Positions 1-14,366 of a DNA stretch of 64,000 nucleotides are shown one piece after another. The notes under the pieces were generated by a model. The model was not told where the DNA came from and did not search any database. It saw only the letters and a list, made by a program, of their open reading frames with translations. The translations under genes were made by a program, and so were the position numbers. How positions within the stretch are numbered: the stretch's first letter is position 1; every line of letters starts with the position of its first letter. This stretch comes from Naegleria gruberi (taxonomy: Eukaryota): NCBI GenBank assembly GCA_000004985.1, contig GG738873.1, one strand, 5' to 3'.

Positions 1-1
1 A

Positions 2-751
2 GAATATTTCTACCTGTACGGAGGGGTGGTAAATAACACTATCTCTAATGCTATCCATAGATGCAAAACATCTGATCTGGAAAGTGGATGGGAGCTTACT
101 AGATTCAAACTTCCTTATAATGTATCAGCTGGTCAATCATTACTGGTAGATGACTTTTTCTATATTTTTGGTGGTCTTGTTAGTCTAAGTGATGACTCTG
201 ATAGCCCAAAGTTAAGTCTCAACGTTACTGACATGATTTTGAGATTCCACATCTCTAATCCCTTCACTCCTGAAATACTATCACAAAGATTACCACTAGG
301 TGTTTATAGTGGTCAAATTGCTAGAGTTAAGGATTATTTGTACATATTTGGGGGAAGAACTCAAGATCCAAATGCACCATACAGCGATATCTTGAAAGCG
401 TCCTATTTCAAACCTACCGTATTTGAAAACTCTTACTCTGTTTTGCCATACCAAGTTACAGATGGTTCGTTAATAGTTACAGAAAACTTTGTTGTTATAT
501 TTGGTGGCTTTTACAGTGGTCTTTACCCATACAATGCAGGAAGATTCAACTATGAAATTGTATCAACCCCATCTGATGAGCCTGTTGGTTCTTGGATGGT
601 GACTGATTATAAGATTCCAGGATTAATGAGGGCGACCCCTTCAATCATGGGTTCAACACTTTCTCTGTTCGGAGAGGATGTCAGAATGGTCAACACATTC
701 CCTCTCTCCAACAGAACTTTCACCATGTTTAACTGCACATTCTTGTTGTAA
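2..751 (+). CDS. Kelch-repeat beta-propeller protein, C-terminal portion; the 5' end lies outside the window
   Basis: The frame is open from position 2 (EYFYLYGGVVNNT...). The track 'M' at 26 is a GTG. Kelch blade motifs recur about every 50 aa (FYLYGG, FYIFGG, LYIFGG, VVIFGG) with W/Y-rich strands, giving at least 4 blades. Several N-x-S/T sequons are present. TAA stop at 749-751, with AATAAA shortly downstream. Confidence 0.6.
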   Translation, partial: EYFYLYGGVVNNTISNAIHRCKTSDLESGWELTRFKLPYNVSAGQSLLVDDFFYIFGGLVSLSDDSDSPKLSLNVTDMILRFHISNPFTPEILSQRLPLGVYSGQIARVKDYLYIFGGRTQDPNAPYSDILKASYFKPTVFENSYSVLPYQVTDGSLIVTENFVVIFGGFYSGLYPYNAGRFNYEIVSTPSDEPVGSWMVTDYKIPGLMRATPSIMGSTLSLFGEDVRMVNTFPLSNRTFTMFNCTFLL

Positions 752-1152
752 TAAAATTGTAAATTATTCTGTCATCAATCAATGACCTTTGTTGAACAGA
801 AAATAATTGTAATGTGATCATTTAATAGATTGAAGGTACAAAATGTTTTGTTTGGTCCTTTTCTAATTAAGGAGTAGAACTAAAACAGAAAGTGTTGATG
901 GAAAACTTTAAAACCAACAAACTCAAAGAAGAATAAAAAAAAACCAATAGTTTAATATAGAATGCTTTCTAATATGAGGGACGATGAGACCACAGAGAGA
1001 GGTGGTTTTGATGATTACCAGGAACCTTTTGACCAATTTCTTGAGAGCAGAAAAAGAAATTTGTCAGAATTATATAGAGATGTACTATAGACATCCAAGA
1101 TGAAGATCAAGTTACGGTTTCGGGATCGTCGAGAAAAATTTACTCAACACGT

Positions 1153-1398
1153 GTGTCTATTAAGAAATCTGACATTGAACTGAATTCCCTAGATGACATC
1201 AGTGACATGCCGCTACCACAACCTTTTTTTAAGCTAATAGAGAAATCCAAAATTCTATATTTGGATATTGGTACTGGTTCTTTCAAGTCTGGTAAGACAA
1301 TCACGGGTGAGTTCATACGGAGTAACTTTCATATATTTGAAAATGGTTTGCAATATTTTCCATACCAGCTACTATACCACAAGGAAAAGAAAGAATAG
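1153..1398 (+). CDS. ORF carrying an actin-fold (ASKHA/Hsp70-type) phosphate-1 motif; probable 5' exon or tandem N-terminal duplicate of the following ORF
   Basis: ILYLDIGTGSFKSGKT resembles the Hsp70 IDLGTTxS phosphate-1 loop. The track start is a GTG; the first in-frame ATG is at 1204 (MPLPQPFFKLIEKSKILYLDIGTGS). Strong donor-like GGTAAGA (1291) and GGTGAGT (1306) lie just after the motif. I could not find a phase-compatible splice to the next ORF. Confidence 0.3.
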   Translation: MSIKKSDIELNSLDDISDMPLPQPFFKLIEKSKILYLDIGTGSFKSGKTITGEFIRSNFHIFENGLQYFPYQLLYHKEKKE

Positions 1399-1975
1399 TG
1401 AAGAAGATACCGATTCACAAGGACACACTATGTACTTGGACCTAGGACACGGTACGACTGATTATACTGTCATGTCATATGATCAAAACCAAAAGAAATT
1501 CATTTTGAAAGATAGTGGTGGGTGGCCTTCTGGACTCTCATGGATTCAAAATTTGATCATGAGAGAGAAGAATTTAACTTTTCAAGAAGCCACCAAACTA
1601 CTAAATAAGCAATTCGACTCACTAGATTCCAATCCTGTTGACGGTATTGCTGATATTCAAGAAAAGATTTATAATGAGTTTGAGAAATTATTACAACCTT
1701 TGTTGTTGGTAATTTTTGAAAATTCAGTTACAAAGGTTTGCTTTGTAGGTGCTTTCATTCATTGCCAATACTTTAGAGAGATTATTAAGAAAATAATTTC
1801 ACACTCTTACATTTCCAAATTTGTAGAGGAAAGAAGAAAGTATTTCAAGGAAGAATTCAAGTTAAAGAAGTTGGAAAAGTTTTCCATCTTCTTCCCTCCA
1901 AAGGCAGGTGCTAGTTGCATCATTCAAGGCTTGATGCGTATGGTTGAGAATTCAAATGGACTCAACCACTGTTAA
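1268..1975 (+). CDS. Hsp70-like truncated ATPase (actin fold); the likely true start is the ATG at 1430
   Basis: MYLDLGHGTTDYTVMSYDQNQKKFILKDSGGWPSG parallels the Hsp70 N-terminus IDLGTTYSCVGV...DQGNRTTPS. The C-terminal part (VCFVGAFIHCQYFREIIKK...FFPPKAGASCIIQGLMRM) parallels Hsp70 LVGGSTRIP...NPDEAVAYGAAIQAAIL. The middle of the nucleotide-binding domain is absent, so this is about 180 aa instead of about 380. Confidence 0.45.
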   Translation: MVLVLSSLVRQSRVSSYGVTFIYLKMVCNIFHTSYYTTRKRKNSEEDTDSQGHTMYLDLGHGTTDYTVMSYDQNQKKFILKDSGGWPSGLSWIQNLIMREKNLTFQEATKLLNKQFDSLDSNPVDGIADIQEKIYNEFEKLLQPLLLVIFENSVTKVCFVGAFIHCQYFREIIKKIISHSYISKFVEERRKYFKEEFKLKKLEKFSIFFPPKAGASCIIQGLMRMVENSNGLNHC

Positions 1976-2227
1976 TTGAAAAAGAATCAACCAGTGACAA
2001 TTCAGTTCCAGTGATGTTACAAGAGATTGCCGAAGAGGGGCAGAAACTTGTTCTTACACCCACATGGGCCTCCTATGTTATGCACGTACTTCAAGATTTC
2101 GAAGTATTCGTCATTACATTGAGCTCTTGTATTGACCCTGAAAGCTTTGAAAATATTAATTTTGATAATTTCAAATACCTTGGAATAAACTAAGCTCCAA
2201 AGATTGGCAGCTGTCACACCCATGTTT

Positions 2228-2836
2228 GATAGAGACTCCATAAGAACAACCAAGAATAATTTTTTGGTCAATGCAGTCATTGATGCAGAAAAAGTGAGAC
2301 TCAACTTCTTCTTTTCTCATGTATCTCACTATTACATGAGTGTATTAGACATTAATAGAACTGGTAGAGTAGAACATATTCCAGTCTGTGGTATTGAACT
2401 ATTGGTATTCAAGGTTCGTGAAACTGAAACCAAGACATGGTATGGTCGTAATTATTATGTGAAAACCATTATTAGAGTGTGTTGCTCCAACCACTTAAAC
2501 AATTCACAAAATCTCATTCCACAGGAATATATTGGCATAATTTCTCCACAAAAGAAAAATGGTAAATATGTTACTGAACTTATTGGTGAGGATAAACCTG
2601 GTGATTATGATACTGTGAAAGCTCTACTGGATTCATTATGTGTTGGTTGTTCCGCAGAGCTTGAGGAAACCAACACCATTCATACAGTGTCCCCACACAC
2701 ATTACCTAAATACCGACGAGCTTTGCAAAATAATAAGCTAATTTGTGGTAATGTCTGCAACAAATGTTACTCAAAATATTGCAACTCATTTAGGACAGAT
2801 GCTTCCTTTTTAAAGAAAAAGAAGTCTAAAAAATAG
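2228..2836 (+). CDS. Hypothetical protein: Cys-rich C-terminal cluster and polybasic tail
   Basis: The track ORF starts on TTG at 2204; the first ATG is at 2228 (MFDRDS...). C-terminal motifs: CVGCSAELEE...LICGNVCNKCYSKYCNSF (C-x2-C ... C-x3-C-x2-C-x4-C) and a KKKKSKK tail. TAG stop at 2834-2836, followed by an A/T-rich 3' region with AATAAA. No recognisable family. Confidence 0.35.
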   Translation, partial: DRDSIRTTKNNFLVNAVIDAEKVRLNFFFSHVSHYYMSVLDINRTGRVEHIPVCGIELLVFKVRETETKTWYGRNYYVKTIIRVCCSNHLNNSQNLIPQEYIGIISPQKKNGKYVTELIGEDKPGDYDTVKALLDSLCVGCSAELEETNTIHTVSPHTLPKYRRALQNNKLICGNVCNKCYSKYCNSFRTDASFLKKKKSKK

Positions 2837-3324
2837 TCTTGTAAAATACTTGTAAATAATAAATTAAAATAATATATCAAATTGTTTAAAATGGTACCAT
2901 TTTTTCATTGAGGAAAGCTCGCTTCTTCTAATGAATGTTTCTCATGGAATAGATAATTATTTGGTAGATAATGGATGAATGACATGATGAAAATCTGATA
3001 ACAAATATGATGTTTATCAAATAGTACCTCTTTTAATATTCAATGTTCATCATCTTTGGATATCTTTGTTCTATTTCACCCATAATTCGCCAGCCCGCTA
3101 ACAGTTTTCACAAATCTGCCACCCATGTAATGGCACTCCATCCTTCAGGTGGATTTCTTCTCATTATTCAGTTCTTCTTTCTTGGTTCATACTTCAGGTG
3201 GTAAATCTTCTTTCTCCTCCTTTAATACTTTTTTTAACCAATAAAAACGAAAACAATGAGCAAGTACGCCCTTAATGATTGTGTTATAGTCTGTCTAACA
3301 AACCAATCAACAGAACTTTCAAAA

Positions 3325-3925
3325 ATATTTCAAAAATATTGGATCAACATCAGGTACATCATGCCTCTGTTGATTCTTGGAGTAGTTTCACATCTATTAA
3401 CTCCAAGAATTTCACCACATCATCTCATCATCATTTAAATAGTAGTATTAATAGTAATTTTTGGAATTTAATTGTTCATCATGATTTGGAAATAATTTTA
3501 TTATTCGGAAACATTCAAGTTGGTACATCATCATCGGAACAACTACCAACCATCATCATTGTTATTTATCATCATTACAATAGTAATATTTGTGGAAATA
3601 AATCTGATAATAGTAATATTTTAGTGAAATTCAATATTTTTCACTAAAATCATCATCACTACCAGATTTATATGATAATTTAGAAAACTTTCAATCTAGT
3701 ATTGTTCAGCATGGTCGATATATATTAGGTAAAATTACTTCCGAACATTTCCCTATTGGTTATCATAATGTTAGGTACATGTATATATTTCAACACCATA
3801 TCTCAACCTGTACTTCACCAACTTGAAAAATGTCTTTCATCACTACTATTCAAATACATAATAAACAATATATTTATTATCAGATTTTCCTAGTTTTGTG
3901 TTTTTACCAACTTCGGGTATTCATA
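3325..3925 (+). repeat. Direct-repeat copy A (about 600 bp, His-codon-rich CATCAT stretches); homologous to 8957-9560
   Basis: Collinear blocks are shared with copy B, for example gtttcacatct, aatagtagta(tt)aatagt, ccaaccatcatca, atttgtggaaat(a)aat, ttttcactaaa(a/t)tcatcatca, agtattgttc(a/g)g(c/a)atggtc(g/a)ata, tgtacttcaccaa, ataataaaca..atatttattat. About 70-75% identity by eye, same orientation. Confidence 0.7.
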
Positions 3926-5195
3926 GTCACCAATCATTATTCATGCCAAAAGTACACAGTCAATCTTCTTGGAACATTAATAAACTTTTATTAGTACTAT
4001 TGCAGATGTACAATATCAATTATTTCGTATTGTTTCGTTGAAATCATGAAGATCTTGATTTTTCTGTTTTTAATTAAATTTCACATCACATACACCATAT
4101 TTGTTGATAGTTACATATTCGCATTACCAAACCGAATTTATTTAGTACGCATAAATTTTATTCAATTTTATTGGTAAAATTATGCGAATTATTACGAATA
4201 AAAATACTATTTATTATTGTATTTTTAAATTAATTAACTGAAAATTATTGCCAATATTTATGGGTAATAATTCATGCAGAATGAAAATTGGTTGAGAGCA
4301 ATAAGACCTGGAAATCTGATCACACTGCACACACTATTAATCTTTGAAAGAAGAAGTGGCAACTGAGTGAATAAATAATTTGAACATAATGATTCGTAAC
4401 ACAACTCTCCAAGCACAAAAATTTCATCACAACAAACAACAGTATCCCTAATTGAGATATCTTCCCAATAAATCTATCGAATTGAATATACATTCCAACC
4501 TTAAGTGAGGATTTTCTAGCATAAAAAGTGCACAATCTTCAAAAATGTGTTGCCCAATGATAATTCGGAAATTGGCCATTTTCTTTTACAAAACAATACG
4601 GATTGAAATTTTGTAAATTGGATCAAAAGTTGAAAATAGATTCTTCTTTCTACAAAGGAGGTTTTTATTGTAAATTAAAAAGCTTTTTTCCATTTGGAAG
4701 AGTATACTTTGTTGATATTTCAATTAAATCATCCATTGCTTACTTTTAAATCTCTCTTCTTCCCAAGATTGTTCGTTTACACCTTTCCTTGCAATTCTAT
4801 TTTGTTTAGAATCTGCAATTTTAGGTAATTCAGGTAATTTCTCAACAATATCTTTCATTTCTGAATGCTCTCTCCTTTTAAATGAGTGTACACTCGCTTC
4901 AGGGCATTTAACAAGGTATTCATCAAATATTTTTGAAAATTAAGGTTGATTTTCTTTGTTTTGTATATTCTTTTTTTCAAAATATTCTTTTAGTGTTAAG
5001 CACATGTGTTTTGTGATTGCTTGATCATTCGTTCAAAATTAATCTCAAATGAAATTGCTGCAAATCCATCTTCTTGTTTGTATTCAAAATTAATCATTGC
5101 TTTTTTCCTTTCGAGTAATATGTATAGTAACAAGGAATTTCGCTAAAAGTTGATTCAGGGACCATGTATTTCAACATATCTCTAAGGAAATCGTA

Positions 5196-5580
5196 CCCAC
5201 TTTTACAAAATATCAAACACCAAATCATATCTGTGGCAATGTTTTTCCCACTTTTTTCTAGTGCTCCCTCTTTAAAAGAGGATATGCTTGGTTAAAGTCA
5301 CCACCACAAAATTCAATATTCGATATTAAGTAGTTGAGCGAAAAATCACTTTTCCCAAAAAGGTATATGATTTCATAACTCACTAATTATCTCAATTAAA
5401 ACAAAAGATTAAATATTCAAAAATGACCAGGATATAGTATACATGATATGAAACCATCCATGCAAAATTCAAGATTTATACCATGAATCAAACTACATAT
5501 TTCCTTTTAAAGAGGGTGCACTAGAAAAAAGCGGGAAGATATGGCACATCCGATTCTTTGTGAAATATTTCCGAAACTGG
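5196..5580. repeat. Foldback / MITE-like inverted repeat (about 85-bp arms, about 210-bp loop)
   Basis: The reverse complement of 5196-5285 (..catatcctcttttaaagagggagcactagaaaaaagtgggaaaaacattgccacagatatgatttggtgtttgatattttgtaaaagtgg) aligns with 5496-5580 (catatttccttttaaagagggtgcactagaaaaaagcgggaagatatggcacatccgattctttgtgaaatatttccgaaactgg) at about 80% identity. Confidence 0.5.
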
Positions 5581-6111
5581 AATTATTGAAAAGGGAGTTT
5601 CAATTGTATTAGCAATCAAATTAACTTTCCTGTCTTTTCACCTTCAAACATTGCTTTGAACAACTTACTGTAATTTTCAACAAGGAAAAAATTCATCAAG
5701 TTTGATAAAAAATAGAAAAGTTTCATCTACAATATTCTTGCATCTGCTCACACAATTCCCACCACAAACATGTTGATGGTAATATCACATCGTTGTTTCT
5801 TGTCCCTTTCTGGTTGGAGGGCCGTCAATTGCAGGAATTGTTGATTATTATTGGATGGTATTATTGTTGTTGGTTTAACACTTAGTGGAGAGGCTACAAC
5901 AAATTTAATCATCCCAAAGTGACTCTACTCTTCCAATCTATTCAAGTTTCAACATTGTGTGTTGTGGATATATTACATTATTGAGATACACACATGTATT
6001 ATTGAGATGATTAGTTGAGTGGATGATATTTCTTCAGTTAATTCTGGAATGAAGAAGGGAAAAACACTGGAAATCATTTTGGATAAAGTTATGTGATTTT
6101 AAGAGAATAGT

Positions 6112-6283
6112 AACATAGCAAGACTAGCTGGTGGAGAATTTTTAAGCTTACCATCCCAGCGCTGGGATGGTCAAAACCAGCTAGACAACATCAAAAACTC
6201 GCGACTAAAAATAATCAGCTGGTAAAAACTGACTTCGCAGATTTCAAGTAGCCAAAAAACAATTTTCCAGTCTTGCTATGTTG
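6112..6283. other. Compound nested palindrome, including a perfect 20-bp palindrome ccatcccagcgctgggatgg (6151-6170)
   Basis: Outer inverted repeat: aacatagcaagactag (6112-6127) pairs with ccagtcttgctatgtt (6268-6283), 15/16. Inner repeat: (ga)ctagctgg(tgg) pairs with ccagctag(aca). Centre: the perfect palindrome ccatcccag|cg|ctgggatgg. The region is GC-richer than its surroundings and lies about 400-550 bp upstream of the YR start. Confidence 0.4.
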
Positions 6284-6670
6284 AGGATAGGGATGAACCT
6301 TTTAATATTTGTCATAAGTGATTGAACAGTATTGTTAATTTGAGTTGATTAATTTTCCAATTAATTGTGTCAAGAGTTGATTTTTTGAAATAAGCTCTTG
6401 CAAAGTTAACATGTATATTCTAGAGAATTCCCATTGGTGGCAGTAACAAATTTTTTTGTCAATACACAAATTCAAAGTTTAAAAAATAATTGTGAAAAAG
6501 ATAAAATGTTATTTTTCTTTACTGTGCAACAGTGGCAAAACATTTCCACCACGAGTGAGGTACGAACGAGCTGGTGGATGATTTTTGCGCGATTTGTTGC
6601 GAAGTAAGAACAGCACTTTTTCTCACGAACAAATATTCCACTGATCTCTGGATATTATTCATTCAAAAAA

Positions 6671-7942
6671 ATGTCTCAAGAGGTTGATGATCTTGCCAGC
6701 GACCTGTTGCTAGAAGAGTTTGATAGTCTCACTGTAACAGGGGAGCAGTCTTTCAACTTTGTTCTTGGAGAAAATAGTATTCAAGCAGTCAAAACAAGGA
6801 AAAACTACAACAATCACAATATGGCACTCAAGGATTTTGCTCTTGAAAATCCAGATGTAAATCTGCAAGATTTACAGGTTGGTTGGTTGAAAGATTATTT
6901 TCAATTCCTCCATCAGAATAAGAAAGTAACTGGTCAAACATTATGGCAATATCACTCCAGTCTTGCAAAGCTGTATGCATGTAATTACAATCTTTCGATT
7001 AAGAATGTTGCCAATTATTCAGTTCTGTCTAGTTTCATCAAAGAATTAGAGAAAAACAGTGTAGACAGCACCGCAGGTGCTGAAGATATTCCATTAAGCA
7101 CAGTAATTGGTGTTCTCTCTCAATACCCAGAAGATGGATCAAATATTATGAAAAAGGCTTTTTTTGTATTCACCACAATAAGCTGTAAGAGATGTGATGA
7201 TGCTCATTGTTTACAATTTCATCATTTAACATTCAAAGAAGATTCAATCGATTTTGATATCTCACAAACTGCAACCAATCCAACTTCCAAAAAAACCAAG
7301 ACAGATGCCTGCACTGGTTGTATTGTCAAAAGCAATGTTCTAGAAATATGTCCCTTTAGAATTTTTAAGAAATACACTGATCAAATTGAAGACAAGAAAG
7401 GTCCTGTATTTAGGAGATGGGTTGGTAAAAAGGGTGGTGGTTATTTCGGAAAACAAGCAGTTGGTATTAACACCATGTACAGTTTCTTCCAAGATATTTT
7501 GAAAAGTGTTATTGAAGTATGTCCAGAGGACATACAAATTGAAGAAAGAACTGGTGCTAGAGCACCAGAACACCTTCGTTCCAACAAGACATCCACAAAA
7601 ATTGGTCTTGCTCGTTATACAGGACACACAGGAAGAAAAACAGCTGGTACCATCATTTCCACCATTGCTGCAATGACTGATCTTGAAAGAAAGAAATATG
7701 GTGATTGGAAGAATATGAAAACGGTTGAAACCTACAGCAACAACAATCCTGAAACCAGAAAAATTGCTAGCAAGAAGGTTGTTGATCATTTATCAGATGC
7801 TTTTAAAAGATCCAATGATGAAGAAGAAGAAAGTCAATATGCTCCTGTAGCAAAAAAGAGCAAGTCTTCCGAATCAAGCTTCAGTAATGATGGAAAGACA
7901 TTCGTCTTCAAAAACTGCTCAAATATCACAATAAACTTCTAA
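6671..7942 (+). CDS. Tyrosine recombinase (site-specific integrase, Cre/Crypton-like); intact 423 aa
   Basis: ATG start in an A-rich context, TAA stop, no interruptions. N-terminal integrase SAM-like core-binding domain (..KNYNNHNMALKDFALEN..LQVGWLKDYFQFL..TGQTLWQYHSSLAKLY). Catalytic hexad recognisable by Cre spacing: R174 (ISCKRCDD), K~210 (SKKTKTD), H319-x-x-R322 (TGHTGRKTAG), W346 (YGDWKN) and Y355 (TVETY). H to W is 27 residues and W to Y is 9, versus 26 and 9 in Cre. Confidence 0.8.
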   Translation: MSQEVDDLASDLLLEEFDSLTVTGEQSFNFVLGENSIQAVKTRKNYNNHNMALKDFALENPDVNLQDLQVGWLKDYFQFLHQNKKVTGQTLWQYHSSLAKLYACNYNLSIKNVANYSVLSSFIKELEKNSVDSTAGAEDIPLSTVIGVLSQYPEDGSNIMKKAFFVFTTISCKRCDDAHCLQFHHLTFKEDSIDFDISQTATNPTSKKTKTDACTGCIVKSNVLEICPFRIFKKYTDQIEDKKGPVFRRWVGKKGGGYFGKQAVGINTMYSFFQDILKSVIEVCPEDIQIEERTGARAPEHLRSNKTSTKIGLARYTGHTGRKTAGTIISTIAAMTDLERKKYGDWKNMKTVETYSNNNPETRKIASKKVVDHLSDAFKRSNDEEEESQYAPVAKKSKSSESSFSNDGKTFVFKNCSNITINF

Positions 7943-8956
7943 CATTTTTATTTCCAGTAAAAAGTGGTGTTATGCACTCATTTATGCCAGCACAGTTGGA
8001 ACTCGGAACAAGAAGAAATAAGCAAGGACGCTGTTATGCACTCACTGTTCGGAGAGGATTATGTTAACTCGCGAGCAGTCCATAACAGGTCCTGGAGTGA
8101 GAAAAAACAATTTAATTTAATCGTAAGTTAGATTTTAATAGCTAATAGTTTGTTTAATTTTAATGTTCAGATTGATGAAATAGTGTTGAACTGTTGCCGA
8201 GCTTATAAGAAGAAGAATTTGAAAGAATTGACGGTGTGCCGGTAAATCCTGTCTAACGGGATCCGTCAGATGTAATAAGCTGTCAAATGGGACAGTCAGC
8301 AGTAAGAGGGAGCAAGAATGGAATTAAGGGAAATACTAAAAATTCTCAATTGTAGAATAATCACTAAAATCAAAGATTACACTCTTTCTGTCTCAAATTT
8401 AAGAATGACATGATATAATTTGACTAAATTGATTAAAACACTGTTGGGGAACTACCCTTCTTTTTTAGAGAAGTTTCCTTCTCAAACAATTCAGGTAAAT
8501 AGTAAACTGTGGAAAGTTTAAATTTGATTTTTTATTGAAAATGAAAAATATGGATTAATTGATATGAGTGTGATTACTATAATGTGCAAGATGTTGAAAA
8601 AGTTGGTTATCTTTGAAATTCAATTTAAAAGTGCACTAAGAAAGCAAATGCTGAACTAGATGAGTTGATACAAATAAACGGTGAGACGGGCAACGGGATG
8701 AACGGGATTCAGGCGTTTCTTATTCTAAACGGGAGATTCTCTCCGCTTAATACTACAAGGTGGCAATTCAAATATGGAGAGAGAGCTTAGTAACATTAAT
8801 AAAATGAATGAGACATAATTACTTTTTGAATTTTCCTTTTATATTTGAAACTTTGACTCTGCTTACTTTCAATTGTTTGTTTAATATGGCTTGCTTGACT
8901 GAAGAATAAGCAATAACTAACACATCCAAACATCACCAGACTGGATTTTGAAGAAA

Positions 8957-9560
8957 AAATATTTCAACATCTAGTACGTGATGTACTTTGATGATTTACG
9001 GAGTGGTTTCACATCTTTATACCACAATAATTTCAGCTCGTCATCTCTACATCATCTATATAATAGTAGTAATAGTGATTTTTTATTGGAAAATTATCAT
9101 CATGAAATTAGAAATTATTTTTCATCATGGAAAAATTCATGTTGGTGATACCATCATCTGATCATTTACCAACCATCATCAATGATATTTTCCATCGATA
9201 TAATAATAGTATTTGTGGAAATTAATTTTCAGTAATTTAATTTTAGTTGAAAATCACCATTTTCACTAAATTCATCATCAGTGTGGAATCTACTGTACAA
9301 ATTGGAAATCTGTCAACATAGTATTGTTCGGAATGGTCAATAGTATCAGAAAAGATTTTGTCCGATGACTTTTGGTCAAGTTATGATAGGGAAAGGTATG
9401 TGTGAAATTTGAAAATACACATTATACTACCCATCATGTACTTCACCAAATCAAAAAGTTTCTTCTAGTAGTACTATTTAAATTGATAATAAACATCATA
9501 TTTATTATAATTTATTCCTTTTCTTTTGTGTTGGTCAAGTTCCGGTTGGGTTGACTAAGA
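8957..9560 (+). repeat. Direct-repeat copy B, homologous to 3325-3925
   Basis: Same collinear anchor blocks as copy A, offset by about 5.62-5.63 kb. Copy B lacks the long His-rich ORFs seen in copy A, so those ORFs are not conserved coding sequence. Confidence 0.7.
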
Positions 9561-10071
9561 ATTGGTTATTTACTCGCCCAAATTAAATTTCCAAATCATG
9601 TAACTTTCCCATGTATTAGTAAATATCAAATTAATAATAAATTTCACTTTTTTTTTAATTTTTTATATAAGGCAGTCCTTAACACTCTTTTTTTCCCTTA
9701 ATTCTAAATAACTCTTGGATCAGATGACGAAACCTGAATTTTTTGAATAATTATGGATATATATAAATAATGACAATGCTACTAACTGTAATTGACATGT
9801 TTTATTATTTGCGAATAAACTTGAAACAAATCTATTCAAAGATTTGCTAATTTGTTAGTTGAAATTACAAAATCAAACAATGAAACTTGATCTGGTAACA
9901 TATATAAATGCACACATCGAGTGGGGAAAGTTTCATGAAATAATAATGTGAAATTTGATCTTGGGAATGAAATCGTTAAGAACAAGTAGATTAAAGCCAA
10001 CAACAAATGGAATAGCCTATTTTATTCAATTCATATTAGAACAATTTTAGAATGTTACTGTGTTATTGAGC

Positions 10072-10716
10072 TTAATATAATTTAGACTTCAAATGTAACA
10101 TTTCCATCATCTTTTGCAAGCCTTTGGATTGAATTTCTTGTAGACGAGGATAGTTACGAGAGTTGTGAATGACAGATTCAAATCGAGCCATCAAAACTTG
10201 AACTCTATTCAACAACGCCTCATTGGAAGAGTAATGACGAAGTGTTTTGGTTGAGACAAAACTTATGACATCTCCATCGGATAGTCTATCACCAACTTCG
10301 TAGTTACGTCTAATCTCCTTGATAGTAGTTAGACCCCAATGTTTACCAGTGAAATCCTCATCAGCGGATTCCTCATCAAGGTCTTCATCAAGTTGATTAG
10401 CTTGTTGCAGAATAGGAGGAACAGCTTCAAGATGCTTTATTCTCTCACCCAAAGAAGTGATGGCGTTGAAAATAGCATCAAGGTTCTTTTCAGAACCAGC
10501 TTGGTTGTTATCCAAGGTTTTGCTTGTTGGGTCAACCACAGAGGGGAGTGAAGCTGAGCTACCATTGTCAGTTACTAGGATGTAACCTGACTTGTAGGTA
10601 GAAGTTGAAGATTTGCTTACTGAAACTCTTTGACGAATGTTGGAGATATTCGCTTTGCTTGGTGTTTGAACCATTTCAATATACTTAATTTTTTTGAGCA
10701 TAAAATTATTTATCAA
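10072..10716 (-). CDS. Hypothetical protein (about 214 aa, Ser/Thr-rich N-terminal part, acidic middle); probably the terminal exon of a minus-strand gene
   Basis: Long ORF of non-repetitive composition ending at a TAA. The track start is a TTG; the first ATG gives MLKKIKYIEM. Upstream on the minus strand a GAC-AAG|GTAATA donor-like site (about 10823) and ..ATTGAG|TTG acceptor-like site (about 10717) could join the 10775-10963 ORF. No family recognised. Confidence 0.45.
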   Translation of the reverse strand: MINNFMLKKIKYIEMVQTPSKANISNIRQRVSVSKSSTSTYKSGYILVTDNGSSASLPSVVDPTSKTLDNNQAGSEKNLDAIFNAITSLGERIKHLEAVPPILQQANQLDEDLDEESADEDFTGKHWGLTTIKEIRRNYEVGDRLSDGDVISFVSTKTLRHYSSNEALLNRVQVLMARFESVIHNSRNYPRLQEIQSKGLQKMMEMLHLKSKLY

Positions 10717-10778
10717 CTCAATTTTATTGTTTACAATTTGTCGAAATGCTAACGTTGCATCGTTCCTCGCAACTCTAC
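10628..10778. repeat. About 150-bp segment (5' end and first codons of the 10072-10716 gene) duplicated at 13243-13390
   Basis: ..ctttgcttggtgtttgaaccatttcaatatacttaatttttttgagcataaaattatttatcaactcaattttattgtttacaatttgtcgaaatgctaacgttgcatcgttcctcgcaact.. is near-identical to the 13243-13390 copy. Confidence 0.7.
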
Positions 10779-10963
10779 ATTATTGAATCTTCTGTAGCCT
10801 TGTTGATTGTTGGATTGATAAGTATTACCTTGTCCTTGGTTGAAGTTGTTGTAGTTGTAGCCAGCTTGTCTAGTATTGTATCTAGTGAGGAACTTACGAA
10901 AATTAAGGGTTCTGCTAGCCCATTTGCTGACTTTTTCAATAGTTTCTGTGTTTGAATGGGCAT
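10775..10963 (-). CDS. Possible upstream exon of the 10072-10716 gene (MPIQTQKLLKKSANGLAEPLIFVSSSLDTILDKLATTTTTSTKDK...)
   Basis: Short ORF whose 3' part contains AAG|GTAATA, a consensus-like donor, in frame. Otherwise unsupported. Confidence 0.2.
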   Translation of the reverse strand: MPIQTQKLLKKSANGLAEPLIFVSSSLDTILDKLATTTTTSTKDKVILINPTINKATEDSIM

Positions 10964-11826
10964 TAAAAATGACTTTGAAGCAGCTGAAAACTTCTCTAAC
11001 AGCTACAAATCAGGAGGTTCACTTAACCAAATCACCTCCAAACAACAAGAGAAGACGATTAAATCTGCTGAAAAAGTAAAAACAGCAGAAGATTAGATTT
11101 AACTCAGAAATATTCTAAATAAATTCAAATCCTTGAAGAATAAGTGGTAAATCAAGAATATCACTCTCTCAAACGCTTGCAGATTTCAATGACTCACCAA
11201 ACATTCTTTGGTAAGAGTCGATGATGTGGTTTTTAAACCAATCATCTAGTTCATCAGCAACTCTTGCACTTTTACCAGAAACCTCTTCAGATGGGTTGGA
11301 CTCAAACAATTCCATCGAAGAAGCGAGAGTAGAAGTACTTTGTGAACCAACCTTGGCGTTGTTTGAGTCTTTGTCAGGTGATATCTTTTGCTGATTGTTC
11401 TTTTTCGTGTCTTGAAGGCATAGCAGAACTATTAGATGAATTTGAGGTGGAAGGAGTTAGAATAATAACTCGTTTCTCGCTACCTGCAGAAGGTGAGCTA
11501 AGGTCTTTCGTTTTCTTGTTGTTCTTTGGTGTAGTTGGTGTTTTGTAATTCTAGAGTGAAACAATTTGTTGAACGTGTAGAATGTATGTGTTCTGAATGA
11601 TTATAATAAATTGAATGTTATTTGCTTAAATTTATTGAGTTTCATGTTCAAAAAATTTATCTAAACTAAATGTCTTCAAGAAACATTTTAACTTCTGCTT
11701 CTAAAGCAAGAAATGATAGGTCCCACCCTGTTCTTATCGAAGTTTACTGAGATAAAGTAGTGTTTCTTGAAAACAACAATTGAATAAACTAATAATAGAA
11801 AGTATGCTCAAAAAAATTGTCATACT

Positions 11827-12954
11827 ATGGTCGCTAAGAAGCCTCAAGATATTGACTCCTCTTTATCTGATGAAGATCTCCCAGCAGTTGAAGTAGAATA
11901 CCTCATAACACTAGTGAAAGCAAGAAAACAACAAGCTGCTAAGAAGCTTAGAAAGTTAAAGGCCATGTCACCTGTAGCTAATAGAAATAAGCGCAAACAA
12001 TTTACTTCAGTTTCATCATCTAACAGTGCCTTAGATGATGGTATTTCAACTGTTGTTTCCAGTTCGTTGTTAAACAATTCAACATTGTTGGATAGTTCTT
12101 CAACTGCACCCTCTTCGTCAAACAATTCGTCTTCTTCCAATTCAGGTAGAGATAGTTTTACCAGTAGTTCATCTGAACATGATATCATGGTGATCAAAGC
12201 CCAAATGCAAGAAATGATTGGAGTTTTGAGAACCGTAACAGGAAATATCTCTGAACTTACTAAGAAAGTTCAGGAGAGAGAAGAAGAATCAGATGATGAT
12301 TTTGTTAATCCAGAAGCTATATCTTTAGAAGTTTGGTTACGTCAAACTTATAGAGACCTTAGAAGTTCTTACAATGTTCCTTCATCTATTGGAGATGATT
12401 TATTACTTTCTGCAGTATCCTCCGAGATACTTAAAGACCGTAAACAAGAGGAGACCAAGAGAAGAATTCAATATTTGCTCCTTAAATACAAGGATGTGAT
12501 TTCCAAGTTTGCCCCAGACATTAGATTGGATGAGATTAACAGTATTGGTTATTCTAAACTAGTAGAGTTAACTCAAATCAAAATTGAATTGTTGGAATAT
12601 GCATTGAATTCTCCACTTGATTTTACAGTCATGACAGAGATTACAGAACTTTGTAGAATGATTTGCAAAGTTGAAGCCCTCTTCCTTAAAGAAGGTTTAC
12701 AAGTTTCCACTTTCGATGTTGGTAGAGAATTCCTTAACAGATACATTTCTACTAATAGTTTCGAAACTGCTGCCGAAAGTGAACTTCATAATATTAGAAC
12801 AACATATCATTACTACAAAGCAACCAAGCAGCAACAAGGTCCAAAGGGAATTACCAAGAAGTATTCTAAGAAGAAACCGTTTCAAAAGAAAAACAATAAG
12901 GGTCAAGGAAACGATGGTAAATTCCAAGGAAAAGATAAGGATAAGTCAGAATGA
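11827..12954 (+). CDS. Hypothetical Ser-rich / Lys-rich protein (375 aa), intronless
   Basis: True ATG start (ctATGgtcgct) and TGA stop. The N-terminus is acidic with a basic stretch (KARKQQAAKKLRKLK). A long Ser/Asn low-complexity region is followed by a predicted helical C-terminal half and a polybasic tail (KKYSKKKPFQKKNNKGQG). No family recognised. Overlapping ORFs on the opposite strand are treated as shadows. Confidence 0.5.
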   Translation: MVAKKPQDIDSSLSDEDLPAVEVEYLITLVKARKQQAAKKLRKLKAMSPVANRNKRKQFTSVSSSNSALDDGISTVVSSSLLNNSTLLDSSSTAPSSSNNSSSSNSGRDSFTSSSSEHDIMVIKAQMQEMIGVLRTVTGNISELTKKVQEREEESDDDFVNPEAISLEVWLRQTYRDLRSSYNVPSSIGDDLLLSAVSSEILKDRKQEETKRRIQYLLLKYKDVISKFAPDIRLDEINSIGYSKLVELTQIKIELLEYALNSPLDFTVMTEITELCRMICKVEALFLKEGLQVSTFDVGREFLNRYISTNSFETAAESELHNIRTTYHYYKATKQQQGPKGITKKYSKKKPFQKKNNKGQGNDGKFQGKDKDKSE

Positions 12955-13130
12955 CTCTTCCACTAATAAAGATTTTTATCCAATCAAAGCAGGTTCTATA
13001 ACTGAATCACCAATTTGGTGAAACAGTTACCTGACTCTAAAACCCATTTGTCTCTAATCAATTTGTTACTCTTTTTATTATAATCTATGAAGAACATTTA
13101 ACTTGATAAATTTTTCAAATTATAAATATT

Positions 13131-13180
13131 ATTTCTCCAAATAAAACAATAAAGAATTTCGTTGATAAACCAATGGGTAG
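13131..13180 (+). repeat. 48-bp perfect direct repeat, copy 1 (atttctccaaataaaacaataaagaatttcgttgataaaccaatgggt)
   Basis: 47-48 nt identical to 13394-13443, separated by about 263 bp. Confidence 0.8.
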
Positions 13181-13242
13181 AAGCTCACTCAACATATTCT
13201 TCATCCAAAGGATGAGGTATGTTGCTCGGAAATGCTGCCTTT

Positions 13243-13390
13243 TAGGTCATTGACTTTATTCAGCAATGATTTTGCTTGGTGTGTTTACCATGTTTCTTAA
13301 TTTTTTTGAGCATAAAAATTATTTATCAACTCAATTTTATTGTTTACAATTTGTCGAAATACTAACGTTGCATCGTTCCTCGCAACTAGC
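13243..13390. pseudogene. Degenerate pseudo-copy of the 5' end of the 10072-10716 gene
   Basis: About 80% identity to 10628-10778. The reverse-complement reading has a 1-nt insertion (aatttttatgctc versus aattttatgctc) that destroys the ORF. It carries a consensus TACTAAC (13360-13366) followed by ..cgcaaCTAG on the plus strand. Confidence 0.55.
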
Positions 13391-13393
13391 CAT

Positions 13394-13443
13394 ATTTCTC
13401 CAAATAAAACAATAAAGAATTTCGTTGATAAACCAATGGGTTA
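13394..13443 (+). repeat. 48-bp perfect direct repeat, copy 2, abutting the stop codon of the YR relic
   Basis: Identical to 13131-13178. The last 3 nt (tta, 13441-13443) are the reverse-complement TAA stop of the minus-strand YR fragment. Confidence 0.8.
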
Positions 13444-13680
13444 GTCCAGAGAAAATAGAGTGTTAGTGAAATTCTTGCCAGCTAGGCCTTCAGATCTAAG
13501 GTAAGGAAATAAACTTTTTTCCTTTTTATGTCTTGCACCGACCATTAGATCAGTTGTAGACATACCCTTTCTGAGTCCTTCTGTGATAGCACCTATTCTA
13601 AGGCTGTGACCTGAGACTGTTACGCCTTGATCTACTATACCCACTGCATTCTTTAGTATTTTTGAAATACCATCTGAATC
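13441..13680 (-). pseudogene. Tyrosine-recombinase C-terminal catalytic fragment (integrase/DIRS-like H-x-x-R...H...Y variant); 5'-truncated relic or terminal exon
   Basis: The open frame is only about 80 codons (..DSDGISKILKNAVGIVDQGVTVSGHSLRIGAITEGLRKGMSTTDLMVGARHKKEKSLFPYLRSEGLAGKNFTNTLFSLD*). GHSLR is the box II H-x-x-R. The second His is 26 residues after the first, and the Tyr (FPYLR) is 9 after that, which is exact integrase/Cre spacing. The track start is a GTG and a stop lies immediately upstream. AT-rich non-coding DNA and microsatellites follow on the 5' side. Confidence 0.6.
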
Positions 13681-13780
13681 TTAGTAGTACCGTTTCAGTT
13701 TTACCTAGTTGTAATAAACACCGGAAATTTATTTATGTTTTTAACTATAAAAGCTGAAAGTAGTCAAATGTTGATATTTG

Positions 13781-13782
<2 letters not shown>

Positions 13783-13812
<30 letters not shown>
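13783..13812. repeat. (AT)n microsatellite, about 15 units
   Basis: Seen directly in the sequence. Confidence 0.9.
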
Positions 13813-13815
<3 letters not shown>

Positions 13816-14301
13816 AATAGATGTTAGATATTAGTTGTTCCATTTATTTTTAAACCTATCACTCCATCAACCTCCATGAATCTAGTTGTCTATTTCTTGT
13901 TGTAAGAGTTTTTCTTTGTTTTAATAAACAACTATCACAACTCTAATTTTACTACTTCTAATAGCAGTGTTTTTGTAATATTTTTACAAAGTTTGTTCTT
14001 TCTTTGAATTCATTTTCTTTGGATTTACCATAAAGATTATTACTTCCAATCAATAATCTTCATAATGATAATACCAACTTTAGAAGATTTTTAAAAATTA
14101 ATGGTTTTTTATATTTTATATATTACTTTGTTAAGCTTTTCTAAATTTCAAATCGATAAATTTTTGAAAATTTATTTTAGCTTCTTAATTTTCAATTAAT
14201 TTCATTATCTTTATATCTAAATCACTTTTAAATGCTTTTTCAGATAAACCAATTAAACCACCATCTTATAAACCAACTTGCAACAAAAATTTTTTCGGAT
14301 G

Positions 14302-14327
14302 TATATATATATATATATATATATATA
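14302..14327. repeat. (TA)n microsatellite, about 13 units
   Basis: Seen directly in the sequence. Confidence 0.9.
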
Positions 14328-14366
14328 AATGCATGCGAAAATTTTTATTTTATTTATATTAAATAT

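What the first reader, a model, noticed from the sequence alone, without database searches (positions are those of the whole stretch)
6112..6283. Compound palindrome with a perfect 20-bp core about 0.5 kb upstream of the recombinase gene: candidate recombination site or structured RNA
Tyrosine recombinases act on inverted-repeat arms around a short spacer, as in loxP, FRT and dif. Here ccatcccag-cg-ctgggatgg is a perfect palindrome. It is nested inside a second inverted repeat (ctagctgg / ccagctag) and a third, outer one (aacatagcaagactag / ccagtcttgctatgtt, 15/16). The block is conspicuously GC-richer than its AT-rich surroundings and sits inside the putative element next to the YR promoter region. 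This is the kind of site where a circular intermediate junction or the element's own attachment/resolution site would be expected. Alternatively it could fold into a stable hairpin RNA of about 170 nt.
Basis: seen in the sequence. Interest (0 to 1): 0.6.

Follow-up and report, generated by a model that had tools for sequence, protein, structure and literature searches.

The report
Nested DNA palindrome beside recombinase element
The flagged nested palindrome in this Naegleria gruberi contig is real, but it lies outside the part of the recombinase element that relatives share and looks most like a small foldback (MITE-like) insertion, while the element's own conserved site is a different hairpin closer to the gene.

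Summary
Window 6112-6282 holds three nested perfect inverted repeats: a 22-bp core, 9-bp arms and 14-bp outer arms. It is GC-richer than its flanks, occurs once in the window, and folds far better than shuffles.

The ORF at 6671-7942 is an intact Cre-like tyrosine recombinase of Naegleria gruberi. It belongs to a rare family of small recombinase-only elements found in Naegleria, Acrasis and unidentified metagenome contigs.

The non-coding module those relatives share is not the flagged palindrome. It is a left-end motif (A)TG(G)TATTTTTC followed by a covarying hairpin with a tandem-G·A core, at window 6501-6588. Homology with every relative stops near 6501. A covariance model built without Naegleria hits only 6544-6579.

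The flagged palindrome lies about 220 nt further out and is absent from relatives that have enough upstream flank. It has MITE-like anatomy: 14-bp terminal inverted repeats, 171 bp, no ORF, and 8-bp flanking direct repeats matching 7/8 (empirical p about 0.014).

One 21-nt stretch inside it copies the hairpin's right arm (p about 0.001-0.004), so a link to the recombinase is not excluded. Genome-wide copy number could not be tested.

The parts
6112..6125 (.). Outer inverted repeat, left arm AACATAGCAAGACT (terminal inverted repeat of the 171-bp unit)
   Evidence: Perfect 14-nt complement of 6269-6282 (I2).
6269..6282 (.). Outer inverted repeat, right arm AGTCTTGCTATGTT
6103..6110 (.). Left flanking direct repeat GAGAATAG (target-site-duplication-like)
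   Evidence: Matches GAGGATAG at 6283-6290 in 7 of 8 positions. Only 1.36% of 5000 random 171-bp placements give an equally good flank match.
6283..6290 (.). Right flanking direct repeat GAGGATAG
6124..6132 (.). Middle inverted repeat, left arm CTAGCTGGT
   Evidence: Perfect complement of 6176-6184.
6176..6184 (.). Middle inverted repeat, right arm ACCAGCTAG. It can pair instead with CAGCTGG at 6216-6222.
6150..6171 (.). Perfect 22-bp palindrome ACCATCCCAGCGCTGGGATGGT. It can be read as 8-6-8 or 7-8-7, which is the geometry of a tyrosine-recombinase core site.
   Evidence: (I9).
6123..6143 (+). Copy (18/21) of the right arm of the conserved hairpin: ACTAGCTGGTGGAGAATTTTT versus ACGAGCTGGTGGATGATTTTT at 6566-6586
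   Evidence: D2. Local-alignment score 15, reached by 0 of 270 other window segments and 1 of 1000 shuffles. It is the best non-self match to that arm in the whole contig.
6186..6255 (.). Second, imperfect sub-hairpin centred on CAGCTG (6216-6221). With the first sub-hairpin and the outer stem it gives a three-way (T/Y-shaped) fold.
   Evidence: Minimum-free-energy structures.
6501..6522 (+). Outside the finding: conserved left-end motif ATAAAATGTTATTTTTCTTTAC of the recombinase unit. Homology with relatives begins here, and it corresponds to the junction point seen in a related element.
   Evidence: Alignments; nhmmer; junction contigs.
6535..6588 (+). Outside the finding: conserved hairpin. 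Arms are 6535-6551 and 6572-6588. The core is CGAGTGAG-GTA-CGAACGAG (6552-6570), which can form Watson-Crick pairs interleaved with two tandem G·A/A·G mismatches.
   Evidence: I3; 29.3 bits, E 1.3e-5, with a model built without Naegleria; 11 of 12 pairs with compensatory changes.
6671..7942 (+). Tyrosine recombinase gene, 423 aa, Cre-like fold

Best explanation
The 171-bp block at 6112-6282 is a genuine DNA-level nested palindrome. It is most likely a small non-autonomous foldback (MITE-like) insertion in the repeat-rich flank of a compact Cre-like tyrosine-recombinase element. It is not that element's own recombination site.

Shown:
- The recombinase belongs to a rare family in Naegleria gruberi, Acrasis kona and unidentified metagenome contigs. 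In one lineage the whole unit is about 1.5 kb.
- The family's conserved non-coding module is a left-end motif (A)TG(G)TATTTTTC, followed about 20 nt later by a covarying hairpin with a tandem-G·A core.
- In the window that module is 6501-6588, and sequence homology with every relative ends near 6501.
- The flagged block starts 220 nt further out and is missing from relatives.
- It has 14-bp perfect terminal inverted repeats, no coding capacity, and 8-bp near-identical direct repeats abutting its ends.

Inferred:
- It arrived by cut-and-paste transposition with an 8-bp staggered target cut, using a transposase supplied in trans.
- Its nested arms let it extrude as a three-way or cruciform DNA structure.
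- The 21-nt similarity to the recombinase hairpin arm is either shared ancestry or chance.
For: Anatomy:
- Perfect 14-bp (15/16) terminal inverted repeats, 171 bp.
- No ORF of 45 aa or more overlaps it.
- Flanking GAGAATAG/GAGGATAG, 7/8, empirical p 0.014 with repeat length and offsets allowed to vary.
- All stems are Watson-Crick and both strands fold similarly, as expected for a DNA palindrome.

Context:
- It lies in a 7-kb gene-poor island.
- The island holds another foldback at 5208-5286/5496-5570.
- The island also holds 590-bp diverged direct repeats.

Not part of the conserved recombinase unit:
- Multiple alignments of 5-6 loci lose all conservation upstream of the left-end motif.
- A profile of the left-end module hits only 6495-6599 in the window.
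- A covariance model built from four non-Naegleria hairpins hits only 6544-6579. It gives the 22-bp core a chance-level 7.3 bits.
- Upstream flanks of related genes in Acrasis (two copies) and L005 contain no comparable nested palindrome.
- In the L002/L003/L015 lineage the unit ends about 25-35 nt upstream of the hairpin and is about 1.5 kb in total.
Against: - Copy number in the N. gruberi genome could not be examined. The block is single-copy in the 15 kb available.
- A perfect 22-bp palindrome plus a nested 9-bp repeat inside a MITE is unusual.
- The flanking repeat is imperfect (7/8) although the terminal repeats are perfect. That sits oddly with a recent insertion.
- The block contains the best non-self match in the contig to the right arm of the conserved hairpin (18/21, p about 0.001-0.004).
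- Relatives carry an extra arm copy near the other end of the unit. This is strong in L001 and marginal in L002 and Acrasis. On a circular or tandem form that copy would lie upstream of the left end, which is where this block sits.
- The outer boundary of the N. gruberi copy itself is not established, so 'outside the conserved unit' is not proof of 'outside the element'.
Confidence: 0.4

Rival explanations
1. Accessory or second site of the recombinase system. The block is a lineage-specific, expanded counterpart of the extra hairpin-arm copy or palindrome that relatives carry near the other end of the unit. Recombinase subunits bind the 6123-6143 arm motif, and possibly the 22-bp core read as an 8-6-8 site, to help synapsis, resolution or regulation.
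For: - 18/21 copy of the hairpin's right arm, in the same orientation, and the best non-self match in the contig.
- L001 has a clear extra arm copy downstream of its gene (score 14 against a next best of 8).
- L002 has a perfect 21-bp palindrome resembling its own hairpin arms 45 nt from its right end. Acrasis copy 1 has a weaker equivalent.
- In the junction contig L003 the right end abuts the left end, so such a copy would lie upstream of the hairpin, as it does here.
- The recombinase is Cre-like, and the 22-bp core has a permissible core-site geometry.
- The stems are perfect in a region where other repeats have decayed to 71-76% identity.
Against: - The 22-bp core and the outer arms resemble neither the A-rich junction arms nor the GTGG...CCAC-type arms of the family.
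- No partner site exists in the window.
- The block is not found in any relative and is not detected by the hairpin model.
- It lies 330-390 nt from the left end, against about 45-70 nt for the arm copy in L002.
- The flanking 8-bp direct repeats are unexplained.
Confidence: 0.3
2. The scar of a lox-type integration of a ~180-bp mini-circle. On a circle, the two 14-bp outer arms would flank the 8-9-bp sequence GAGRATAG(T), giving a 14-8/9-14 site like loxP or FRT. Integration by a tyrosine recombinase would leave exactly this picture: inverted arms at the ends and the shared spacer as a short direct repeat on both sides.
For: - The geometry follows directly from the sequence.
- A single-base difference between the two spacers is what a heteroduplex overlap would leave.
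- A Cre-like recombinase is encoded 390 nt away.
- The unit carries a copy of the hairpin arm.
Against: - The arms (AGTCTTGCTATGTT) are unrelated to the junction or left-end sequences conserved in this recombinase family.
- No circular form or second copy is known.
- The same anatomy is explained more simply by a transposase-made target-site duplication.
Confidence: 0.08
3. A gene for a ~170-nt structured non-coding RNA, or a structured part of a long 5' leader of the recombinase mRNA.
For: Very stable predicted folds on both strands, z about -5.
Against: - No Rfam family at gathering or permissive thresholds, and no tRNA or tmRNA.
- All stems are perfect Watson-Crick with no G-U pairs.
- Both strands fold comparably, which is the signature of a DNA palindrome.
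- No homologue in any related locus, so no covariation support.
- By contrast, the nearby hairpin at 6535-6588 does show covariation.
Confidence: 0.07
4. Chance, or an assembly or cloning artefact.
For: Perfect palindromes can arise from chimeric clones. Arms of 11 or more occur in 6% of mononucleotide shuffles of the contig.
Against: - Those shuffle hits ignore composition, and the observed arm is 64% GC in a 32.5% GC contig.
- There are three nested perfect repeats with asymmetric unique sequence between them.
- None of 200 shuffles folds as well.
- Expected chance matches are 0.00-0.01.
Confidence: 0.02

Closest known systems
MITEs / foldback elements (non-autonomous DNA transposons making 8-bp target-site duplications, as hAT-, P- or Merlin-type transposases do; superfamily properties from general knowledge)
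   Same: Small size (171 bp), perfect short terminal inverted repeats, no coding capacity, strong hairpin potential, near-identical 8-bp direct repeats abutting the ends, and a location in repeat-rich non-coding DNA.
   Different: Multi-copy status is untested. The termini do not match any superfamily consensus I can name. The interior holds a perfect 22-bp palindrome and a nested 9-bp repeat. It also carries a 21-nt copy of a recombinase-associated hairpin arm.
Core sites of simple tyrosine recombinases (loxP, FRT, dif: inverted 11-13-bp arms around a 6-8-bp spacer; from general knowledge)
   Same: The 22-bp core can be read as 8-6-8 or 7-8-7. The encoded protein is structurally Cre-like.
   Different: The spacer is symmetric, so it gives no directionality. 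Only one copy is present. The arms are not related to the sites conserved in this recombinase family. The location is not at the conserved boundary or junction.
Cryptons (eukaryotic DNA elements that encode only a tyrosine recombinase)
   Same: The neighbouring gene is the only ORF of a small unit with no reverse transcriptase and no long terminal repeats. A right-end-to-left-end junction contig exists in a relative. The Crypton-derived QRICH1 domain appears among the structural matches (rank 44).
   Different: No Pfam DUF3504 or other Crypton-type domain is hit; only a SAM-like N-terminal domain is found. The family has a conserved tandem-G·A hairpin next to its left end, which I have not seen described for Cryptons. 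No phylogenetic placement was done.
Folded single-strand recombination sites (integron attC, CTX-phage attP; from general knowledge)
   Same: These are imperfect palindromes recognised through their structure by tyrosine recombinases. The family's conserved hairpin keeps non-Watson-Crick positions while its stem covaries.
   Different: That comparison applies to 6535-6588, not to the flagged block. No evidence exists for a single-stranded stage. IntI is only a distant structural match (rank 40-41).
T-shaped terminal hairpins (parvovirus ITRs) and telomere-resolvase targets (22-bp telO of phage N15); recalled from memory and used only as leads
   Same: An outer stem enclosing two sub-hairpins, and a perfect 22-bp palindrome.
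   Different: The block is internal to a chromosome contig, not at a DNA end. The protein has the integrase-type R-K-H-R-W-Y set and matches Cre, not protelomerases.

Membership tests
Tyrosine-recombinase recombination site of this element | Two inverted recombinase-binding arms around a 6-8-bp spacer | tested here: met
   The 22-bp core reads as 8-6-8 or 7-8-7. This shows geometry only; binding was not tested.
Tyrosine-recombinase recombination site of this element | Lies at the element boundary or circle junction | tested here: not met
   Homology with 5-6 related loci ends at about 6501. The junction in L003 versus L002/L015 maps to the left-end motif. The block is 220-390 nt away.
Tyrosine-recombinase recombination site of this element | Conserved, or covarying with the recombinase, in related elements | tested here: not met
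   No match to the outer arm in the 17 loci held at that call. No comparable palindrome upstream of Acrasis copies 1 and 2 or L005. The hairpin covariance model gives 7.3 bits, E 3.3.
Tyrosine-recombinase recombination site of this element | A partner site with the same arms and spacer | tested here: inconclusive
   None in the 15,288 real bases.
Tyrosine-recombinase recombination site of this element | Bound or cleaved by the encoded recombinase | not testable with these tools
   Needs protein biochemistry.
MITE / foldback transposon | Terminal inverted repeats | tested here: met
   14 nt perfect, 15/16.
MITE / foldback transposon | Target-site duplication abutting the ends | tested here: met
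   GAGAATAG/GAGGATAG, 7/8, with a one-base offset on the left. Empirical p 0.014. This is suggestive, not proof.
MITE / foldback transposon | Short and non-coding | tested here: met
   171 bp. No ORF of 45 aa or more overlaps it.
MITE / foldback transposon | Multiple dispersed copies with different flanks, and empty sites | not testable with these tools
   The N. gruberi genome is not in any searchable collection here.
Structured non-coding RNA | Match to a described RNA family | tested here: not met
   No Rfam hit at gathering or at E up to 10 over the block.
Structured non-coding RNA | Compensatory substitutions across homologues | not testable with these tools
   No homologous sequence was found.
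Structured non-coding RNA | Strand-specific fold with G-U pairs | tested here: not met
   All three stems are perfectly Watson-Crick. Both strands fold, z -5.0 and -5.5.
Crypton-like recombinase-only element (the neighbouring unit, not the block) | Single ORF encoding a tyrosine recombinase with an intact catalytic set | tested here: met
   R174, K210, H319, R322, W346 and Y355 are invariant in A2. Cre-like model, pLDDT 79.5.
Crypton-like recombinase-only element (the neighbouring unit, not the block) | Sequence membership in a described Crypton clade or Crypton-type Pfam domain | tested here: not met
   Pfam finds only PF13102. No literature record for Naegleria or Acrasis. No phylogeny was done.

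The most novel reading that the evidence does not exclude
The block is a non-autonomous mini-cassette mobilised by the neighbouring Cre-like recombinase. When circularised, its 14-bp outer arms flank the 8-9-bp GAGRATAG(T) spacer and form a lox-like 14-8/9-14 site. The flanking 'target duplication' is then the shared crossover region, and the internal copy of the hairpin arm recruits the enzyme. That would be a eukaryotic, integron-cassette-like system built around a family of ~1.5-kb recombinase elements that carry a conserved tandem-G·A hairpin.
Probability: 0.08. Interest if true: 0.8.

Novelty: new member of a known kind. Interest (0 to 1): 0.42.

Why it matters
If the block is a foldback or MITE-like insertion, it is ordinary repeat annotation for Naegleria gruberi.

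The more useful result is the by-product. The recombinase belongs to a rare, apparently undescribed family of very small recombinase-only elements in Heterolobosea and uncultured protists. The family has three features worth following up:
- a conserved left-end motif;
- an observed right-end-to-left-end junction;
- a hairpin whose stem covaries while two tandem G·A mismatches stay fixed.

This gives a concrete, testable recombination site for a eukaryotic Cre-like enzyme. It also raises the question of whether a eukaryotic tyrosine recombinase recognises folded DNA or RNA. Whether the flagged palindrome takes part in that system can be settled with a genome-wide BLAST and one binding assay.

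Tried and rejected
1. Rfam at gathering and permissive thresholds, and ARAGORN, over the window: nothing on the block.
2. Fetching the N. gruberi scaffold around the gene: not on record.
4. DNA-pattern scan for the hairpin motif. There were no hits in viral contigs.
5. The 20-bp core in viral contigs: no match.
6. P0044 and its contigs L006-L008: mis-clustered Arf fragments with no recombinase.
7. Shared TAGTAACAT between the left edge of the block (6107) and 8788, next to a candidate right end: score 11, within the noise of the window.
8. Shared ATAGCAAG with the L001 hairpin: score 8, noise.
9. Homology between the region upstream of the left end (5600-6510) and the region downstream of the gene, as a test for a tandem or permuted copy. 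Nothing significant except a 43-nt inverted repeat at 6456-6498/8831-8872.
10. Enrichment of AGCTGGT around the block: the 7-mer is common throughout the contig, with 8 copies.
11. GTGG-N-CCAC motifs in Acrasis locus L017: they look like chance, and that copy appears degenerate.
12. DNA alignment of the three Acrasis copies to define element ends: too diverged.
13. A profile of the left-end module does not see the block.
14. Literature searches on Naegleria or Acrasis with tyrosine recombinase, Crypton or MITE: nothing relevant.

Full report
**What the window is.** Only bases 1-15288 are sequence, with a 50-N gap at 14418-14467. The rest is N padding. GC is 32.5%. The 423-aa ORF at 6671-7942 is identical to an NCBI 'predicted protein' of Naegleria gruberi. 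The scaffold itself could not be fetched. All statements about uniqueness therefore refer to 15 kb.

**The observation.** The block is exactly as described, and slightly better.
- The core is a perfect 22-bp palindrome at 6150-6171.
- Around it is a perfect 9-bp repeat, 6124-6132 / 6176-6184.
- The outer repeat is a perfect 14-bp pair, 6112-6125 / 6269-6282 (15/16 over 16).

GC is 0.398 against 0.31-0.33 in the flanks. Pattern searches expect 0.00-0.01 chance matches. The folds are -51.9 (+ RNA), -60.2 (- RNA) and -29.0 kcal/mol (DNA), with z from -4.7 to -5.5, and none of 200 shuffles matches them. Excluding (AT)n tracts, this is the longest perfect palindrome in the contig.

The fold is a three-way structure. 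A 14-bp outer stem is extended by pairing of GGAGAATTTTT with AAAACAATTTTCC. It encloses one sub-hairpin around the 22-bp core and a weaker one centred on CAGCTG at 6216.

**The recombinase.** Pfam finds a phage-integrase SAM-like N-terminal domain. An exhaustive HMMER search of 1.84 billion representatives finds only 43 relatives. They share R174, K210, H319-x-x-R322, W346 and Y355, and a C-terminal VF-NC...I motif. An AlphaFold2 model (pLDDT 79.5) matches Cre best (E 3.7e-8). Lambda Int, XerH, Tn1549 Int, IntI and the Crypton-derived QRICH1 follow. The protein is a simple two-domain, Cre-like enzyme.

Relatives occur in Acrasis kona, another heterolobosean, with at least three copies. Others are on short metagenome or Logan contigs of 1.2-2.6 kb.

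**What relatives conserve next to the gene.** Aligning the upstream regions of N. gruberi, L002, L001, L012, L013 and two Acrasis copies shows no similarity until a motif (A)TG(G)TATTTTTC. From there, similarity continues through a hairpin about 20 nt further on. In the window these are 6501-6522 and 6535-6588.

The hairpin core is N-GAGTGAG-[3-5 nt]-CGAACGA-N'. Written antiparallel, it gives Watson-Crick pairs interleaved with two tandem G·A/A·G mismatches. The closing pair is C-G in four loci and G-C in Acrasis. Each hairpin folds on its own.

A covariance model built only from L002, L012, L013 and Acrasis finds exactly one significant site in the window, 6544-6579 (29.3 bits, E 1.3e-5). It also finds a version with the two core halves swapped upstream of the 23%-identical relative in L005.

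On the resulting six-sequence alignment:
- 91.7% of cells pair.
- 11 of 12 pairs show changes on both sides.
- None of 500 shuffles reaches the observed covariation (0.772 against 0.245).
- Slid controls give 0.07-0.21.

The alignment is fitted to the model and has only six sequences. Even so, the signal is large.

**Where a related unit ends.** Contig L015 is 100% identical to L002 22-1548 and stops there at both ends. Contig L003 runs from the region downstream of the gene (...gcgtgcaaaaa) straight into tggttattttct, which is the left-end motif of L002. L002 itself continues ...gcaaaaaa|tgtctttc. This is a right-end-to-left-end junction, either circular or tandem. It sets the unit at about 1.5 kb, with its left end about 25-35 nt upstream of the hairpin.

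By homology, the left end of the conserved unit in the window is about 6501-6508. ATAAAATG occurs only twice in the contig, at 6501 and 8799. A 43-nt inverted repeat, 6456-6498 / 8831-8872 (72%, E 0.007), brackets that interval. The ends of a 2.3-kb unit may therefore lie there, but this is only suggestive.

**Position of the flagged block relative to this.** It ends at 6282, 218 nt before the left-end motif.
- The left-end profile and the hairpin model do not detect it.
- Its outer arm has no match in the 17 loci held at that call.
- The 500-600 nt upstream of the left end in Acrasis copies 1 and 2 and in L005 contain no comparable nested palindrome. In Acrasis copy 1 a divergent gene starts about 35 nt away.

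The block is therefore not part of the family's conserved architecture.

**What the block looks like on its own.**
- It has 14-bp perfect terminal inverted repeats and is 171 bp long.
- No ORF overlaps it.
- GAGAATAG (6103-6110) and GAGGATAG (6283-6290) abut its ends. Only 1.36% of 5000 random placements give an equally good flank match when repeat length (3-11) and offsets (0-2) are free.

It sits in a gene-poor 7-kb stretch. That stretch holds another foldback at 5208-5286 / 5496-5570 and 590-bp direct repeats of 71% identity at 3332-3918 / 8955-9546. This is the anatomy of a MITE or foldback insertion with an 8-bp target-site duplication.

**What argues for a tie to the recombinase.** ACTAGCTGGTGGAGAATTTTT (6123-6143) matches ACGAGCTGGTGGATGATTTTT (6566-6586) in 18 of 21 positions. 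The latter is the end of the hairpin core plus its right arm. The alignment score of 15 is reached by 0 of 270 other window segments and 1 of 1000 shuffles. It is the best non-self match to that arm in the contig.

Relatives carry an extra arm-like copy near the other end of the unit. It is clear in L001 (14 against a next best of 8) and marginal in L002, where it is a perfect 21-bp palindrome, and in Acrasis. On a circle or tandem, that copy would lie upstream of the left end.

The contig's only two GTGG-N7-14-CCAC motifs are the hairpin's left arm (6532) and GTGGCAATGTTTTTCCCAC at 5233, inside the other foldback. The upstream region may thus hold relics or accessory sites of the recombinase system.

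Other apparent similarities did not survive controls.

**Weighing.** Two signals of similar strength point in different directions: the flanking duplication (p about 0.014) and the arm copy (p about 0.001-0.004 before allowing for post hoc choice). My ranking is:

| Explanation | Confidence |
|---|---|
| MITE-like foldback insertion in the flank of the recombinase unit | 0.40 |
| Accessory or secondary site, or relic, of the recombinase system | 0.30 |
| lox-type mini-circle scar | 0.08 |
| Non-coding RNA | 0.07 |
| Artefact or chance | 0.02 |
| Other origins, such as a palindrome created by replication or repair | remainder |

The lox-type reading unifies both signals. When the block is circularised, its arms and the flanking repeat form a 14-8/9-14 site.

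The claim that the block is the element's own attachment or resolution site is not supported. The better candidate for that role is 6501-6588.

**Novelty.** The block itself is, on present evidence, a new member of a known kind. I found no literature on this recombinase family in Naegleria or Acrasis. The family and its tandem-G·A hairpin are the more unusual result.

**Limits.** No access to the rest of the N. gruberi genome. No expression data. Small numbers of related loci, mostly with short flanks. Several p-values were computed after the pattern had been seen.

Noticed in passing
window 6501-6588: Left-end motif ATAAAATGTTATTTTTCTTTAC plus a hairpin (arms 6535-6551 / 6572-6588, core CGAGTGAG-GTA-CGAACGAG). 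Both are conserved next to related recombinase genes in Acrasis kona and in metagenome contigs. The stem covaries while two tandem G·A mismatches stay fixed.
   Followed up: yes
L003 1285-1410 versus L002 1-40 and 1432-1560; L015: A contig joins the region downstream of a related recombinase gene directly to the left-end motif. Another contig from a different sample ends at both inferred boundaries. This implies a circular or tandem form of a ~1.5-kb unit.
   Followed up: partly
window 3332-3918 and 8955-9546: Direct repeats of about 590 bp at 71% identity bracket the whole 5-kb region that holds the palindrome and the recombinase gene. Their origin is unknown.
   Followed up: partly
window 5208-5286 / 5496-5570: A second foldback: 79-nt arms at 75% identity, with the inner 42 nt at 88%. 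It contains GTGGCAATGTTTTTCCCAC at 5233, which resembles the hairpin's left arm GTGGCAAAACATTTCCAC. These are the only two GTGG-N7-14-CCAC motifs in the contig.
   Followed up: partly
window 6501 and 8799; 6456-6498 / 8831-8872: ATAAAATG occurs only at these two places. A 43-nt inverted repeat (72%, E 0.007) lies just outside them. These are possible ends of a 2.3-kb recombinase unit.
   Followed up: partly
window 8255-8735: AACGGGA occurs four times on the + strand, all within this 480-nt stretch downstream of the recombinase gene. Its reverse complement occurs nowhere in the contig. The pattern is iteron-like.
   Followed up: no
window 7970-7980 and 8034-8044: Direct repeat TTATGCACTCA just downstream of the recombinase stop codon.
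   Followed up: no
window 7897-7939 (C-terminus of the recombinase): A C-terminal motif, roughly VF-x-NC-x(3-5)-I-x-F, is shared by most family members after a non-conserved acidic linker. Its function is unknown.
   Followed up: no
window 10072-10716 (-) and 11827-12954 (+): Two divergently oriented ORFs are distant paralogues (BLASTP E 4e-7, 24% identity). Neither has a significant Pfam domain: the first gives only a sub-threshold LAGLIDADG_3 hit (E 0.026) and the second gives none.
   Followed up: partly
L016 1271-2326 (+) and 2588-3781 (-): Acrasis kona carries two diverged copies of the recombinase gene tail to tail, with 262 nt between their stop codons. Each has its own left-end motif and a G·A-type hairpin upstream.
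   Followed up: partly
L014 1-118: A distant family member has a 118-nt near-perfect palindrome (-96 kcal/mol) upstream of its gene. CGAGGGA occurs three times in the same orientation within it.
   Followed up: partly
L005 710-746: Upstream of a 23%-identical relative, the hairpin is present with its two core halves exchanged (CGAACGA...GAGTGAG). This keeps the same predicted helix.
   Followed up: partly
L012 1680-1727: By eye, the contig end next to a related recombinase gene resembles the start of a 5S rRNA gene. Rfam at gathering threshold reported nothing, and the stretch is truncated.
   Followed up: partly
window 13781-13814 and 14302-14327; 14418-14467; 15289-64000: (AT)n microsatellites, a 50-N assembly gap, and N padding over three quarters of the window.
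   Followed up: yes
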